This document shows, piece by piece, positions 6,001 to 12,000 of a stretch of DNA of 64,000 nucleotides. The stretch is taken from assembly GCF_056712565.1 (NCBI RefSeq), contig NZ_CM160072.1; one strand, written 5' to 3'. Made by a program: the position numbers. How positions within the stretch are numbered: position 1 is the stretch's first letter; each line of letters starts with the position of its first letter.

Positions 6001-9000
6001 ATAACCATCCACGCTGCCGTGCTGCTCGCTGGTGCCAACGTTAACCTGGTAGTGCGTTGCGTCATCGACGCGCTTAAAGTAACCGACCTGGCTGCTGTCC
6101 GATCCGCTGCCGTAGGAACCGTTGTAGGTCACGGTGCTGCTGTCGCTCCACGGAATGCTCATACTGAGGTACATCCCCTTATCCGCATTATCGTCATATT
6201 CGTAGCGATAGCCGGTCACCGAGATGCTCATGTTGCGAATGCTCCCCATATTAAAATAGTGGGAAAACATCAGGTTATAGTTTGTCTGTTCCGGGCGATC
6301 CCAGTAAGTACGATGGGAGTAGTTGAGATAGATCGAAACACCCGCAGCGGCAAAGTTCTGGTTATAGGTGATCGTATACATCTCTTTGTCGTTACCGGTC
6401 CGCGCCATGTCCGACTGGTTCGCGTCCAGATACTCGCTCATGGTCATGAAGTTCTTTTCAGAAAAACGGTAGCCTGCAAAGGTGACGCGGCTGTTGAGTT
6501 CGTCAAAGTCTTTGGCATAGCTCACGCGAAAGGAGTTGCCGTCCAGTTTTCCTTTGCCGTATGCGCTGTCATGATCCAGGTTGACGTGCGAGTGAGTCAC
6601 ATCGAACGCCAGCGCGCCAAACTGTGCGAGGTCGCGCCCCACCCCCATCGCCGCCGACTGATAGTGTTTATCTGCCAGCGCACCACCGTAGAGCGACCAG
6701 CCATCTGCCACCCCCCATGACGCTTCTCCGCCGGAGAAAAAGCCGCCTTCGGTCTTGTGGTTCCAGTCTTCCGGACGCCCCATCATCACTTTGTAACGCA
6801 CCTGCCCCTGGCGCGTGAGGAATGGCATAGATGCGGTGGTAACGTCATATTCCTGCACCTGACCATTCTGTTCTTCAACGCGGACGTGCAGTGTGCCGGA
6901 GACGGAGTCGCCGATATCCTGAATGCGGAATGGCCCGGCGGGAACCTGGGTTTCGTAAAGTACCCGGCCCATCTGGCTAATGGTGACTTTTGCACTGCTG
7001 TGCGCCACGCCGGAGACATCCGGCGCATAGCCGCGCAGGTTGGGCGGCAGCATCTGGTCATCGGTGCTGACGCTGCTGCCGATATAGTTAAAGCCGTCGA
7101 AAATATCGGAATTGAGATAATCTTCCCCCAGCGACAGCTTCGCTTTTAAAGAGGGTAAGGCCCGCCAGGCGTAATAACGGCTCCAGTCCCAGTTTTTGCT
7201 CGTTGTACTGTTACTGCTGTCATCGTCGTCATCGTTGCTGCGGGTGTGCTGATAATCACTTTGCCAGTCTGCACGGAAACGCCATGCCCCCAGGTTCGCC
7301 CCAACGGTACCGTTGCCGCTGATATCATGTGAGTCCTCGCCCCCCTGCTCCTGGTGGCGAGTTTGCGCATTGAGGCTGTAGTCGGCAATCAGGCCAGGAA
7401 TACCGTCGTCCCAACGTGAGGGAGGGTCCCAGTCGCTGCTGGTATATTCGAGGTAAGCCTGTGGCACTGTCAGCAGCAACGCCGACTGGCTTAAATCATT
7501 CTCGACTTCCATCCCGTCTAATTGACCTGGTTTAAGGCATTCATCGTTGTGCGTCCACTGCAGGCTTTTTGCTATCCCTTCTTTCAGCCCCAGCGCCGCC
7601 ACTAACTCAGGTGTCAGGCAGGCATAGTTTTTTGTTGGATCGTTTTCAGAGACGTACCAGTTAATGTCGTATTCATCAGAAAGGGGTTGTTTATTTATAA
7701 ATACACGTAAATTATATTTACCCGCGTCGACATACCCTTTTTTTGAAAACTTACCGAGATCAATTTTCGTATCGCCCTTTAACTCAAGGAAACGGGGGTC
7801 AAATTGAATTGAATCATCAGCCCATGCATTGACTGATCCACCAGAGATTGCCAGCGCAATATAGCAGGCGATTCCCCGCAGCCGAAAATTTGAGTGATTA
7901 GGCATACACATATCCGTTTGTGAAACAGTCGTAAATCTGTTGCGTGTTGAATAACCCCACAGCAGAGATAGGTAATCTGGAATGTGGTCAGGGTTTCGAA
8001 CTGGCCGAGATCCGGCGCATCGGTTTCACCCACCAGCCAAGCTTTAAAGTTCAGCGTTTGCTTGTCTTTACCCTTGCTGGTTGAAGTATCCATCACGATT
8101 GGCTGAACAATCTTTTCGCCCACTTTATAACCTTTGCCATGGGTATCGCCGATTACCAGGCTCACGTGGTTCATGGCAACACCGCTGTCAACATTGAATA
8201 ACGCATAGTTATCCGTGTTGGCTGGCCCCGCGTAGTTAGTGCCGGTGAACGTGGTCTCCATGTTTGTTTCAGTGGTAAACACGCAATCCTGTAAACGGAT
8301 CTGGAAATCTTTCGGTGTGGTAGTGCCACCGCCGGTCAGTTTAGCCGCACCGATGTCACCCATATCGACTTCCAGTTTGTGATCGTCTGGAACGATAGAG
8401 CACGGGGAGTCTTCAATGGTGCCGTAGAAGCGCGCGGTACCGTTGTTGCCTGCTGCAAAAGCAGAACTGGAAACAACTGCGCCCATGACCATCGCCGCAG
8501 CAATGGCTGTTTTGGCAAACTTACTCATTATTTGTCCTTAAATCATTAAGAGTTATAATATAAGCACCTGACATAAAATTAATATATATTATGCCCGATA
8601 TTTATAGTTAGCCATTGAACATATACACTCCAATATAATCATAGAATGTAAACAAGTATTCTCTGGTGTGTCTGTATGTTGGTCTTATCTATAAAAAAAC
8701 TCAATTTAGTAATACTTAAACACTTTATGTAGATTTTATTAATTAATACATCTACAAAATACTTTCACCACTTTCCAACAAAAAAACATGCGAATTATCA
8801 ACAAAAAACAAACCATTATAATCAACAAAAATGAATTGCTTATAAAGCACACTAAAAAAATTATAATGACCTTACCATTATTTATTGCTAAAATTTAATA
8901 TTAATTAAATCAATAAATATATATTCAAGACACAAAACCATTATCTTCTTTATTTTATTACGGGATTCAATAATGGGAAAATATAATAACTATCGAGAGT

Positions 9001-12000
9001 TGTTAAATATTAACAACATTTAGACAAGAAAAAGAATGATTGTATGACGGAGAAACTGCCCGGTGTACGCGCACGTAACCGGGCATTGATTGCTTAAATT
9101 GCTTTTGCCATCTTCAAATTACAAGGGCTCATTTGCCAGTTGAATTGGCCTTTTCCGCTTTCATCAAGCGTTACGCTGGCAATCGCTGAAGTGGTAAACA
9201 TAGGCGGCGTTTCGCCCGGACATAACTCGGCAACCAGATACCCAACTAACGGTAAGTGGGAGATCACCAGTACCGAAGCAACACCTTCATTGGTCAACGC
9301 CTGCAAATAGGCACCGACCAGACCAACATCGCCGCAGGGCGTTAACTCCGGCAGAACTTCTGCACTGGAAGGCAGGTTCAGACAATCCCCTACTTCTTCC
9401 AGTGTTTGCTCGGCTCGCAGGAACGGGCTCACCAGAACGCGTTCGATTTCCACTTTTTGACCTTTCAGCCAGTTCGCCATCAGGCGAGATTCGTCACAAC
9501 CGTTAGTGGTCAGAGGACGAACCGAATCACTGGCGGCATCGAGGGCTGCGTCGCCGTGACGCATGATAAAAACTTGCATATTGCACCGCTTTTGTTAACC
9601 AGATTCGCCCGTTTTCTTTCATCTGAAACCAGAGAAAGAAAACGGTGGCCGGCATTGTGCCTTATCCATTCACCGAATGAAACGCTGTTTTTTACCTCAA
9701 TGGCGTAAGTATAGTCAATATGCGTTTACATTTTGAGCAAAACTCCGCCATTCAGCGCGGATTCATATAACTTTGACCTTCTTATTGCAGGTCAGTTGCA
9801 GTTGTTTTCCAAAAACTTTCCCCACGCTCGCTCATCTCAACTAAACGATCGCAAGGGGTAAAACGGGAACCATACTGCGTGGCCAGTCGTTGCATTATTG
9901 CAACCACTTCGCCTGCGCCGAGAGAATCGATATAGCGGAACGGTCCACCGAGAAATGGCGGAAAACCAATGCCAAATACCGCGCCTATATCCCCGTCACG
10001 CACGCTACGGATAACCTGCTCGTCCAGACAACGTACTGCTTCATTCAGCATCAACATCACACACCGTTCAGCAACCTGCGGTGCGGAGAGTCGCCCCTGC
10101 CCTTGTGCGCCAATGAGCGGGTAAATGGCGGGATCGACCTGTTTTTTGCTTTTACGCCCTTTCTGACCATAAAGATAGAAACCCCGACCATTTTTTCTGC
10201 CTTTGCGATCGTCGTTCAAAATTGAAGAAACAACATTTGCAGGCGCGCTAAAACGTTCTCCATAAGCGGCTTCCAGTACAGGCATAATTTTAGTCCCGGT
10301 GTCGATTCCTACCTCATCCAAAAGTTGGATTGGGCCTACCGGAAAACCAAATTTCACTAGCGCGGCATCGATATGCTCAATACGCTCGCCTTCGGTCAAC
10401 ATGCGGATAGCTTCATTGATGTAAGGCGCTAAGATGCGATTGACGTAAAACCCGGCTTTGTCACGCACGACAATTGGCGTTTTGCCCTGTTTTTTCGCCA
10501 GTTTTACCGTGGTGGCGATGGTTTGCGCCGATGTACTCGCATGAGGAATAATCTCCACCAGCGGCATTTTTTCCACCGGACTGAAGAAATGCAGGCCAAT
10601 AACTTGCTCAGGTCGCGCGGCGTGAGCGGCGATATCGCCAATCGGTAAAGATGACGTGTTCGAAGCAAAGATGGTATGAGTAGCGCAATTTTGCTCCACT
10701 TCCGCCACCATCTGTTGTTTTAATTCGAGATTTTCAAACACCGCTTCAATAATCAGATCGCGATGGGCAAAGCCGCAATAGTCCGTCGTTCCGGAGATTA
10801 ATGCCAGCTGTTTGTCACGTTCGCTGGCTTTGAGATGACGACGGCGAACTTTGCCCTCAAGCTGATCCCAACTGTACTTCAGCGCATGATTTATGCCCCG
10901 CGGGTTGATATCTTTAATTCTGACCGGAAGCCCCGCTTTACAAGCAGTGACATAAGCAATACCGCCGCCCATCAAGCCACCACCTAGAATCCCCACGCTG
11001 TTTAATGGCGCAGGCGGCGCATCACTGCCGGGATCTTTCTTCACGTCCGTACTGGCAAAAAAGATATTGCGCAGCGCCTGCGATTGCGGCGTCATCGCCA
11101 GTTCGCCAAACGCCCGTGCTTCAGCGTCATAGCCGCTGCTGGTGCCCTGCGCTAATCCCGTTTCGACAACCTCCAGGATGCGTTCTGTCGCCGGATAGTT
11201 ACCTTGCGTTTTGTGTTCTGTTTTCTTACCGACCATTTTGAACAGCAGCGCACGACCTAACGGCCCCGCCAGAATACGCTCGCGTACAGGTAGAGGGCGT
11301 GAAGATGGGCGATCCTGCTTTGCCAGCTCAACAGCGGCTTCCAGCAATATGGAGTGCGGAACGACGTCATCCACCAACCCCAACTTTACCGCCTGTTTCG
11401 CCCGAAGTTGTTTTCCGGTGAGGATCATCTCTAATGCTGTGCTGACACCTATCAGGCGCGGTAAACGCTGGGTACCGCCTGAACCGGGTAACAATCCAAG
11501 TTGTACTTCAGGCAAACCGAGCACCGTTTTAGGATCGTCAGTACAAACACGACCGTGGCACGCCAGCGCCAACTCCAGCCCGCCGCCCAGGCAAGCGCCA
11601 TGAATAGCCGCGATAACCGGAATGGGCAAAGCATGAATCTCCGCCATTAACTGTTGCCCCTGCCGCGCCAGTACTTCCGCTTCTTGCGCCGTTTTGCAGT
11701 TGCCGATCATGTTGATGTCTGCGCCAGCAATGAAGTTGTCTGGTTTCGCGGAGACAAACACCACGCCACGCAACTCTTTGTTTTCACGGATTTGCTTAAT
11801 AATGGCGCGTACCTGCGAGGCAAATTCCGCCTTGAGGGTATTCATTTTCTCACCCGGTACGTCGATGGTGATGATAGCAATGTTGTCCAGACGAACATTA
11901 AGAGTAAACGCTGATGCCATTTCCATTATTCCGCCTCCAGAACCATTGCTGCGCCAAGCCCACCCGCAGCACAGGCGGTCACTAAACCAAATCCACCGCC

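What the first reader, a model, noticed from the sequence alone, without database searches (positions are those of the whole stretch)
8529..9093. Long AT-rich silenced-looking region upstream of the yfc operon
Seen: ~560 bp of very AT-rich, ORF-free DNA between sixA and yfcV with poly-A/T tracts. Established: fimbrial operons are commonly H-NS-silenced from such upstream regions. Low novelty; a candidate site for phase or environmental control of Yfc fimbriae.
Basis: partly seen in the sequence, partly recalled or inferred. Interest (0 to 1): 0.2.

Follow-up and report, generated by a model that had tools for sequence, protein, structure and literature searches.

The report
AT-rich control region of yfc fimbriae
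This is the very AT-rich control region in front of the Yfc fimbrial operon of a uropathogenic-type E. coli; the same spacer in E. coli K-12 is already published as an H-NS-bound, poorly transcribed "promoter island", so the finding is real but ordinary.

Summary
Window 8529-9093 is exactly the sixA-yfcV intergenic spacer. It is 565 bp at 26.4% GC against 48.3% for the window, the lowest-GC stretch of that size in 64 kb, and it has no credible ORF.

The window is 100% identical to E. coli ATCC 11775 (phylogroup B2), and the spacer is 99.6% identical to that of CFT073.

The H-NS reading is supported indirectly. The K-12 version of this spacer is listed by name among 78 H-NS-bound "promoter islands". 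It is also listed as an RpoD-holoenzyme SELEX site flagged HNS. In CFT073, overproducing the PapB-family regulator TosR raises yfcV expression (log2 fold change 5.2).

Two phase-switch models fail their defining tests.
- Invertible element: inverted repeats are no longer than chance, at least 98% of 1226 genomes are colinear, and the window holds no IpuA/IpuB-type invertase.
- Pap-type Dam/Lrp switch: the spacer has no GATC site.

New detail from this work:
- The spacer exists as several alleles that can barely be aligned, all 26-32% GC.
- A few blocks are conserved across alleles: the sixA terminator hairpin, a distal promoter-like element (8877-8904), an imperfect inverted repeat (8607-8621 / 8657-8672), and the ribosome-binding site.

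Verdict: already known in kind, low interest.

The parts
9094..9579 (-). sixA (phosphohistidine phosphatase), the upstream flanking gene. Its stop codon marks the sharp boundary where the alleles begin to diverge.
   Evidence: 161-aa ORF, annotated SixA in ATCC 11775. It is 96-99% identical between alleles, falling to 85% only in the last 54 nt.
9057..9085 (-). Stem-loop just after the sixA stop codon, the likely sixA transcription terminator. It is followed by a weak U-tract (AGUUUCU, 9050-9056).
   Evidence: Minimum free energy -18.8 kcal/mol, z = -3.2, reached by 0 of 200 shuffles. K-12 and EDL933 carry a hairpin at the same position with different stem sequences (-37.8 and -22.1 kcal/mol). 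The simple terminator scan did not call it because the U-tract is weak.
8529..9040 (.). AT-rich core (23% GC): the proposed H-NS binding platform, or 'promoter island'.
   Evidence: Composition. It holds 8 of the 22 sigma-70-like hits found in the first 20 kb, on both strands. Every allele examined is 26-32% GC. The K-12 counterpart is H-NS-bound in published data.
8887..8933 (-). Distal block, conserved within an otherwise unalignable half of the spacer.
   Evidence: Mean pairwise identity is 0.6-0.7 across five divergent alleles, against a background of 0.1-0.45.
8877..8904 (-). Candidate yfcV promoter. The -35 is TTAATA (8904..8899), the spacer is 16 nt, and the -10 is AATAAT (8882..8877). 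The implied transcription start is near 8870, giving a leader of about 340 nt.
   Evidence: Called by the scan. The equivalent position in other alleles reads TTAATA-17-TATAAT (E69), TTAATA-17-TACAAT (EDL933), TTAATA-17-TAATAT (L013) and TAAATA-17-TAGAAT (E. whittamii), read from alignment A4. The promoter predicted at the K-12 SELEX site, TTGAAA-17-TATAGT, lies about 25 nt upstream of it in the alignment. The assignment is inferred; no start site has been mapped.
8657..8672 (-). Conserved block GACACACCAGAGAATA, the 5' arm of a conserved imperfect inverted repeat.
   Evidence: Highest conservation in the spacer outside the ribosome-binding site: 0.77. It pairs with 8607-8621 in the alignment consensus fold.
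8599..8621 (-). Conserved block TGTTCAATGGCTAAC (8607-8621, the 3' arm of the inverted repeat), followed directly by TATAAATA (8599-8606).
   Evidence: Alignments A4 and A6. The helix has 12 pairs: 8 invariant and 2 with compensatory changes. 93.5% of cells are paired, against 39% or less when the partner columns are slid. The single-sequence fold does not use this helix and is not unusually stable, z = -0.77.
8529..8542 (-). Ribosome-binding region TTTAAGGACAAATA, directly before the yfcV ATG (8528..8526).
   Evidence: Invariant in all 10 sequences aligned.
7779..8528 (-). yfcV, the major fimbrial subunit gene and first gene of the yfc operon. In this strain it reads through as a 249-aa ORF because its stop codon has been deleted.
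   Evidence: Annotated as a pseudogene in ATCC 11775.

Best explanation
The region is the cis-regulatory spacer of the yfc (yfcV-yfcO) chaperone-usher fimbrial operon, in the allele carried by phylogroup-B2/ExPEC strains.

Read in the direction of transcription (minus strand), it contains:
1. the sixA terminator hairpin;
2. about 510 bp of 23%-GC DNA;
3. within that DNA, a conserved distal sigma-70-like promoter about 340 nt upstream of yfcV;
4. a leader with a few conserved blocks;
5. an invariant ribosome-binding site.

Proposed mechanism:
- The AT-rich DNA attracts both RNA polymerase and the nucleoid protein H-NS, which prefers AT-rich DNA. It carries many promoter-like hexamer pairs on both strands.
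- H-NS filaments over the promoter region keep the operon nearly silent under laboratory conditions. This is the published 'promoter island' behaviour.
- Expression needs an anti-silencer or an activator that competes for AT-rich DNA. One example is the PapB-family regulator TosR in uropathogenic strains.

What is shown and what is inferred:
- Shown here: anatomy, composition, conservation pattern and allele distribution.
- Taken from the literature: H-NS and RNA polymerase binding to the K-12 allele, and the TosR and BolA effects on yfcV.
- Inferred: H-NS binding to this allele, and the identity of the promoter.
For: - Exact intergenic position and extreme AT content.
- All alleles are 26-32% GC although the distal half cannot be aligned between them. 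Composition is kept while sequence is not.
- 8 of the 22 promoter-like hits in 20 kb fall within these 565 bp, on both strands.
- The K-12 spacer is published by name as an H-NS-bound promoter island and as an RpoD SELEX site with an HNS flag.
- yfc is described as cryptic, and most chaperone-usher operons as H-NS-repressed.
- In CFT073, whose spacer is 99.6% identical to this one, TosR overproduction raises yfcV by log2 fold change 5.2. The same paper predicts that TosR antagonises H-NS/Lrp silencing at the tos operon.
- BolA overproduction raises yfcV in K-12.
- A promoter-like element is conserved in position across alleles.
Against: - There are no H-NS occupancy or transcription data for this allele. 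The K-12 allele it is compared with is highly divergent.
- The published high-affinity H-NS motif TCGATAAATT is not enriched beyond composition: 1 site at 2 or fewer mismatches, against 2.0 in shuffles.
- There is no A-tract phasing.
- Against composition-matched shuffles, the promoter-like excess is modest: 8 vs 3.5 +/- 2.4.
- The coding part of the operon is 50-64% GC. Any silencing must act at the promoter, not by coating the whole operon.
- The TosR effect could be indirect, and only yfcV was reported as induced. Most genes of the operon were unchanged or below the read cut-off.
- The candidate promoter matches only 9 of 12 consensus positions and no start site has been mapped.
Confidence: 0.75

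Rival explanations
1. A fimS-like invertible promoter element: a recombinase flips a segment of the spacer, switching Yfc fimbriae on and off.
For: Fimbrial operons are the classic home of such switches. One perfect 10-nt inverted repeat, AATATATATT, lies at 8581 and 8916 with 325 nt between the arms, close to the size of fimS.
Against: - That repeat is an AT-only palindrome. 48% of dinucleotide-preserving shuffles contain a perfect inverted repeat at least as long at similar spacing.
- 1205 of 1226 genomes with this allele are colinear over at least 80% of the spacer. The proximal 172 nt is intact and single-copy in all 1238 genomes that match it. The one non-colinear case inspected is an IS1 insertion with a deletion.
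- The window has no IpuA/IpuB-type invertase homologue (tblastn), and the neighbouring genes are sixA and fadJ.
- All divergent alleles align in the same orientation.
Confidence: 0.03
2. A Pap-type epigenetic phase switch, in which Dam methylation of two GATC sites competes with Lrp binding.
For: Pap, Sfa and related fimbriae use this mechanism. The region is AT-rich, as Lrp sites are.
Against: - This allele and its B2-type relatives have no GATC in the spacer. K-12 has two GATC sites 144 bp apart, and O104 and EDL933 have one.
- There are no papI/papB-like regulator ORFs in the spacer.
Confidence: 0.02
3. Slipped-strand variation of a homopolymeric A/T run changes promoter spacing or leader function, giving heritable on/off variation.
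For: Very close relatives differ by one base in run length. The A-run at 8803 is one base longer in CFT073, and two T-runs are one base shorter in AZ162.
Against: - The longest runs are only 7 nt, short for high-frequency slippage.
- None of the variable runs lies between the -35 and -10 of the candidate promoter.
- Run counts are close to what composition predicts.
Confidence: 0.05
4. A leader-RNA or operator element is the main control. The conserved inverted repeat (8657-8672 / 8607-8621) would form a stem in a long 5' UTR, or bind a dedicated regulator, and would govern yfcV expression in addition to H-NS or instead of it.
For: - Both arms are the most conserved sequences in the spacer outside the ribosome-binding site.
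- Of 12 pairs, 93.5% of cells are paired, against 39% or less when slid. Two pairs at the base show compensatory changes (CG/GC/GU).
- The spacer between the arms varies in sequence and in length by up to 9 nt.
Against: - The structure was derived from these same sequences, and there are only 9 distinct sequences.
- 8 of 12 pairs never vary, so they say nothing either way.
- The fold of this allele alone does not use the helix and is no more stable than shuffles, z = -0.77.
- In this allele 2 of the 4 basal pairs are broken.
- No Rfam family matches.
- It is not known whether the region is transcribed.
Confidence: 0.2
5. A functionless spacer whose AT-richness reflects only mutational bias in unconstrained DNA.
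For: The distal half cannot be aligned between alleles, and indels and IS1 insertions are tolerated.
Against: - Extreme AT-richness and a length of 558-680 bp are kept in all alleles, including another species, E. whittamii.
- Discrete conserved blocks stand out from the background.
- The K-12 allele binds RNA polymerase and H-NS.
Confidence: 0.05

Closest known systems
The E. coli K-12 yfcV/sixA 'promoter island' (Panyukov & Ozoline 2013, PMC3661553; Shimada et al. 2014, PMC3946193)
   Same: Same chromosomal position, between the sixA stop and the yfcV start. Same orientation and same role upstream of the yfc operon. Similar length and AT-richness (680 bp at 32% GC vs 565 bp at 26% GC). Shared conserved blocks, shared ribosome-binding site, and a clustering of promoter-like sites.
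   Different: It is a different allele. The distal half cannot be aligned and there are large indels. K-12's predicted promoter TTGAAA-17-TATAGT is not conserved here. K-12 has two GATC sites and this allele has none. This allele occurs in 1226 of 5426 complete genomes; the K-12-type spacer gives matches in 3529, of which 3072 cover at least 80% of it. H-NS and RNA polymerase binding were measured only for K-12.
H-NS-silenced upstream regions of other cryptic E. coli chaperone-usher operons (yad, yeh, sfm, ybg, elf, ecp)
   Same: These are long AT-rich spacers upstream of the major-subunit gene. Several are in the same promoter-island list (yadN/folK, yehD/yehE, folD/sfmA, ybgD/gltA, ssuE/elfA, ecpR/ykgL). 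The operons are poorly expressed in the laboratory.
   Different: There is no sequence relationship. Each has its own regulators. None has been demonstrated for yfc apart from the TosR and BolA overexpression effects.
fimS, the invertible switch of type 1 fimbriae
   Same: An AT-rich, H-NS-bound fimbrial promoter region. The fimE/fimA spacer is also a promoter island.
   Different: fimS has specific 9-bp inverted repeats, dedicated recombinases, and both orientations in populations. All three features were tested here and not met.
The bgl operon silencer (from my own knowledge, not tested here)
   Same: An AT-rich, H-NS-bound upstream region keeps the operon cryptic. IS1 and IS5 insertions occur in that region. 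IS1 insertions are also seen in the yfc spacer of other strains.
   Different: Whether IS1 insertion activates yfc is unknown. One of the three insertions removed yfcV altogether.

Membership tests
H-NS-bound 'promoter island' / AT-rich silenced promoter region | A stretch of 300 bp or more with A+T far above the genome average | tested here: met
   565 bp at 26.4% GC against 48.3% for the window; the lowest of all 565-bp stretches in 64 kb.
H-NS-bound 'promoter island' / AT-rich silenced promoter region | An unusually high density of potential transcription start sites on both strands | tested here: inconclusive
   8 of 22 simple sigma-70-like hits in 20 kb fall in this 2.8% of the sequence, 5 on + and 3 on -. 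Against composition-matched shuffles the excess is only 8 vs 3.5 +/- 2.4. The original PlatProm criterion could not be run.
H-NS-bound 'promoter island' / AT-rich silenced promoter region | H-NS and RNA polymerase occupancy in vivo or in vitro | not testable with these tools
   Published only for the K-12 allele. The Lang H-NS motif is not enriched beyond composition here.
H-NS-bound 'promoter island' / AT-rich silenced promoter region | Low productive transcription that rises when H-NS is removed or antagonised | not testable with these tools
   Indirect only: yfc is described as cryptic, and yfcV rises by log2 fold change 5.2 on TosR overproduction in CFT073, which has a 99.6% identical spacer.
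fimS-type invertible promoter switch | Specific inverted repeats flanking a segment of about 100-400 bp, longer or better than chance | tested here: not met
   The longest perfect inverted repeat is 10 nt (AATATATATT). 48% of shuffles do as well.
fimS-type invertible promoter switch | Both orientations found among isolates | tested here: not met
   1205 of 1226 genomes are colinear over at least 80%. All divergent alleles align in one orientation. Of the 21 non-colinear genomes only one was inspected, and it is an IS1 insertion with a deletion.
fimS-type invertible promoter switch | An adjacent tyrosine recombinase (FimB/FimE/Ipu type) | tested here: not met
   tblastn with IpuA and IpuB finds nothing in the 64-kb window. 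The neighbours are sixA and fadJ. Action in trans by recombinases encoded elsewhere is not excluded.
Pap-type Dam/Lrp methylation switch | Two GATC sites within Lrp-binding sites in the regulatory region | tested here: not met
   No GATC in 8529-9093, nor in the related AZ162 and HH45 spacers.
Pap-type Dam/Lrp methylation switch | papI/papB-like regulator genes at the head of the operon | tested here: not met
   No ORF longer than 37 aa. The longest ones are not conserved even in CFT073.
Rho-independent terminator (for the sixA-proximal 9050-9085) | A stable GC-rich stem-loop directly after the stop codon | tested here: met
   -18.8 kcal/mol, z = -3.2. A hairpin sits at the same position, with different stems, in K-12 and EDL933.
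Rho-independent terminator (for the sixA-proximal 9050-9085) | A U-rich tract immediately after the stem | tested here: inconclusive
   The tail is AGUUUCUCC, only 4 U in 8, so the scan did not call it. EDL933 has UUUGUCUUUUU.
Known structured RNA family (Rfam) | A match at or above a family's gathering score | tested here: not met
   The only hit is IS009: 17.8 bits against a gathering score of 117, E = 0.19.

The most novel reading that the evidence does not exclude
The two most conserved blocks of the spacer are GACACACCAGAGAATA at 8657-8672 and TGTTCAATGGCTAAC at 8607-8621. They may form an undescribed cis-regulatory element specific to yfc operons. It would be either a stem closing a variable loop of about 35-45 nt in a long (about 340 nt) yfcV leader, or a two-half-site operator for an unidentified regulator. 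The element is kept across at least six alleles that otherwise barely align, including one from E. whittamii, and it shows two compensatory base-pair changes.
Probability: 0.2. Interest if true: 0.35.

Novelty: already known. Interest (0 to 1): 0.13.

Why it matters
- yfcV is used as a marker gene for uropathogenic E. coli, and Yfc fimbriae increase adherence to bladder cells when expressed. How the operon is switched on in B2 strains is a real question, though a specialised one.
- B2 strains carry a control region almost unrelated in sequence to the well-studied K-12 one. K-12 ChIP and SELEX data therefore cannot be transferred base by base.
- The few blocks conserved across alleles are the obvious targets for mutagenesis: the distal promoter-like element, the inverted repeat and the ribosome-binding site.
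- Beyond that, this is one more example of a well-known principle: AT-rich, H-NS-silenced promoters of cryptic fimbrial operons.

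Tried and rejected
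- **Invertible element.** Rejected on repeat statistics against shuffles, colinearity across genomes, and a recombinase search.
- **Pap-like GATC/Lrp switch.** Rejected because the spacer has no GATC.
- **Hidden small gene.** ORFs of 37 aa or less; the two longest are frameshifted in CFT073. Rejected.
- **Known RNA family.** The Rfam E-value scan gave only a chance-level IS009 hit.
- **H-NS nucleation motif TCGATAAATT.** Not enriched beyond composition, so uninformative.
- **A-tract phasing and curvature.** No AA/TT periodicity at 9-12 bp.
- **A proximal sigma-70 promoter near the conserved TATAAATA (8599-8606).** Inspection of alignments A4 and A6 found no acceptable -35 at 16-18 nt in any allele.
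- **Stable leader RNA fold in this allele.** z = -0.77, not significant.
- **Primary literature.** The supplements of Kahramanoglou et al. and the Korea et al. 2010 paper are not held in the library. H-NS evidence is therefore cited through papers that summarise them.
- **Literature search.** One search was wasted because 'Korea' matched the country name.
- **Distant blastn.** A search with the proximal 172 nt did not reach the K-12-type alleles. Cross-allele comparison relied instead on synteny-based retrieval and on an exact-pattern scan of the ribosome-binding-site block.

Full report
**1. What is at the coordinates**

The window is 100% identical to E. coli ATCC 11775 over the finding. RefSeq annotation of that strain matches the ORF calls.
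- sixA occupies 9094-9579 on the minus strand.
- The first gene of the yfc chaperone-usher fimbrial operon, yfcV, starts at 8528 on the minus strand.
- It is followed by the usher (5257-7911), a chaperone, three fimbrial subunit genes and the YfcO-family adhesin gene.

So 8529-9093 is exactly the sixA-yfcV spacer. Both genes are transcribed right to left, which puts the spacer downstream of sixA and upstream of yfcV.

**2.

- The spacer is 565 bp at 26.4% GC, with a core near 23% and a minimum of 20.3% over 8700-8960. The window as a whole is 48.3% GC.
- It is the lowest-GC stretch of its size in the 64 kb. The runner-up is 32.6%.
- No ATG ORF exceeds 36 aa.
- The two longest ORFs (8788-8898 on +, 8739-8852 on -) span an A-run at 8803 that is one base longer in CFT073. 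That strain's spacer is otherwise 99.6% identical, so neither frame is conserved.
- Poly-A tracts exist: three A7, one A6 and two A5, all A on the + strand. Their number is what the composition predicts, apart from a marginal excess of runs of 7 or more.
- AA/TT dinucleotides are not helically phased.

**3. Anatomy, read along the minus strand**

*(a) sixA terminator.* Directly after the sixA stop comes a stem-loop at 9057-9085. Its free energy is -18.8 kcal/mol, z = -3.2. K-12 and EDL933 carry a hairpin at the same place with different stem sequences (-37.8 and -22.1 kcal/mol). This fits a conserved sixA terminator. In this allele the U-tract is weak.

*(b) The AT-rich body.*
- Eight of the 22 sigma-70-like hexamer pairs found in the first 20 kb fall in these 565 bp, five on the + strand and three on the - strand.
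- Against composition-matched shuffles the excess is modest: 8 vs 3.5 +/- 2.4.

*(c) Conserved blocks.* I aligned this allele with K-12, O104:H4, EDL933, E. coli E69, HH45, AZ162, E. whittamii, Escherichia sp. E1V33 and one metagenomic contig.
- The distal half is essentially unalignable. Pairwise identity is 0.1-0.45, and about 0.30 is expected by chance at this composition.
- Five blocks stand out:
  - 8889-8937, identity 0.6-0.7;
  - 8699-8718, identity 0.71;
  - 8651-8670, identity 0.77;
  - 8605-8626, identity about 0.65;
  - the ribosome-binding site TTTAAGGACAAATA plus the start of yfcV, identity 0.8-1.0.

*(d) Candidate promoter.*
- The distal block contains a promoter-like element conserved in position. 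Here it reads TTAATA-16-AATAAT (8904..8877).
- The same position reads TTAATA-17-TATAAT in E69, TTAATA-17-TACAAT in EDL933, TTAATA-17-TAATAT in L013, and TAAATA-17-TAGAAT in E. whittamii.
- The promoter predicted at the RpoD SELEX site in K-12, TTGAAA-17-TATAGT, lies about 25 nt upstream of it in the alignment.
- I found no acceptable sigma-70 promoter conserved in the proximal 300 nt.
- My best guess is therefore a distal promoter and a leader of about 340 nt. This is inference, not a mapped start site.

*(e) Conserved inverted repeat.*
- The blocks at 8657-8672 (GACACACCAGAGAATA) and 8607-8621 (TGTTCAATGGCTAAC) are complementary to each other.
- The helix has 12 pairs. 93.5% of cells are paired, against 39% or less when the partner columns are slid.
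- Eight pairs are invariant, and two basal pairs show compensatory changes.
- The stretch between the arms varies in sequence and in length.
- This could be a leader RNA stem or a two-half-site operator.
- The evidence is thin. There are only nine distinct sequences, and the structure was derived from them. This allele breaks two basal pairs. Its own fold ignores the helix and is not unusually stable, z = -0.77.

**4. Population picture**

- The allele in the window occurs in 1226 of 5426 complete E. coli genomes. It includes sub-types at about 96% and 94% identity, and a mosaic at 84%.
- The K-12-type spacer (680 bp) gives matches in 3529 genomes, of which 3072 cover at least 80% of it. O157:H7 and others carry further types.
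- sixA is 96-99% identical between these strains, and divergence begins at its stop codon.
- YfcV protein is 74% identical between this strain and K-12.
- Every allele is 26-32% GC and 558-680 bp long. Composition and length are kept while sequence is not.
- This is what one expects if the selected property is AT-richness, meaning affinity for nucleoid proteins, plus a few specific sites.
- The coding part of the operon is 50-64% GC. Silencing must therefore act at the promoter region.

**5. What the literature already says**

- The K-12 spacer appears by name, '2453647_489 yfcV(-)/sixA(-)', among 78 promoter islands. These are AT-rich regions with very many potential start sites that bind RNA polymerase, make mostly abortive products and are covered by H-NS. 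This one is marked as H-NS-bound in the Kahramanoglou and Oshima data sets (PMC3661553).
- Genomic SELEX lists an RpoD-holoenzyme peak in the same spacer with an HNS flag (PMC3946193).
- Reviews and genomic papers describe yfc as functional but cryptic, and most chaperone-usher operons as H-NS-repressed, citing Korea et al. 2010.
- In CFT073, overproducing the PapB-family regulator TosR raised yfcV by log2 fold change 5.2. TosR is predicted to bind AT-rich DNA, and the paper predicts that it antagonises H-NS/Lrp silencing of the tos operon (PMC5956150).
- BolA overproduction raised yfcV in K-12.
- I could not read the primary ChIP tables or Korea et al..

**6. Rivals**

*Invertible switch.* Not supported.
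- The best inverted repeat is an AT-only 10-mer that half of the shuffles match.
- At least 98% of genomes are colinear.
- The one inspected exception is an IS1 insertion with a deletion.
- All alleles align in one orientation.
- The window encodes no homologue of the IpuA/IpuB invertases.

*Pap-type Dam/Lrp switch.* Excluded for this allele, because the spacer has no GATC site.

*Slipped-strand control.* Unlikely. Runs are 7 nt or shorter and lie outside the candidate promoter spacer, although one-base run-length differences do exist between close strains.

*Known RNA family.* None matches.

*Neutral junk.* Contradicted by the conserved blocks and by the conserved composition.

**7. Verdict**

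Its H-NS interpretation is supported, by published data on the K-12 allele and by inference for this one. Its phase-variation suggestion is not supported.
- The thing is already known in kind and, for K-12, by name.
- The modest additions here are three: the extreme allelic divergence with kept AT-richness, a conserved distal promoter candidate, and a conserved inverted repeat of unknown role.
- Interest is low.

Noticed in passing
window 7779-8528 (junction at about 7962/7963): yfcV has lost its stop codon. Compared with AZ162, a 24-bp deletion between short TCTG repeats has two effects. It removes the TGA, and it removes the left arm of a 9-bp GC-rich hairpin (CCCCACAGC-GTTCT-GCTGTGGGG) that lies between yfcV and the usher gene. 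The result is a 249-aa ORF that runs into the usher gene. RefSeq marks the gene as a pseudogene in ATCC 11775. The exact deletion junction is present in 113 of 5426 genomes, including UTI89. The major Yfc subunit is therefore probably defective in this lineage, even though yfcV is used as a UPEC marker gene.
   Followed up: partly
L004 (1788-2485), L008 (1312-2009), L009 (1187-1884): the sixA-yfcV spacer in other strains: There are three apparently independent IS1 insertions in this spacer, at different positions and in different orientations. One is accompanied by deletion of yfcV and of the 5' end of the usher gene. This recalls IS insertions in the AT-rich bgl silencer. Whether they activate yfc is unknown.
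   Followed up: partly
window 8529-9093 vs L002, L005, L010, L013, L014: The spacer and the operon exist as several deeply divergent alleles, with a sharp boundary at the sixA stop codon. Strain HH45 is a mosaic. Its proximal upstream region resembles B2 (84%), while its YfcV protein is identical to that of O104:H4 (K-12-like). This points to recombination within the spacer.
   Followed up: partly
window 5257-7911: The usher gene is intact here (884-aa ORF), whereas K-12 yfcU is an annotated pseudogene. The operon's state differs by lineage: intact usher but damaged yfcV here, the reverse in K-12.
   Followed up: no
window about 18950-20100 and about 54000-54570: These are the other low-GC stretches of the window (32.6-36.8% GC). 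The first lies just past tRNA-Arg, at the intS prophage integrase region. CFT073 carries a different island at that tRNA, with upaE and the ipuA/ipuB invertases, which is absent from this window.
   Followed up: no
L013 (JAIJJM010000567.1): A 2.2-kb contig labelled as a Collinsella MAG carries an Escherichia-type sixA 3' end, an AT-rich spacer and a yfcV start. It is almost certainly a mis-binned enterobacterial contig.
   Followed up: no
L002 11255-11335 (K-12 sixA 3' flank): The hairpin after sixA in K-12 is much larger. It is a two-tier stem (-37.8 kcal/mol, z = -7.1) followed by about 70 bp that this allele lacks.
   Followed up: no
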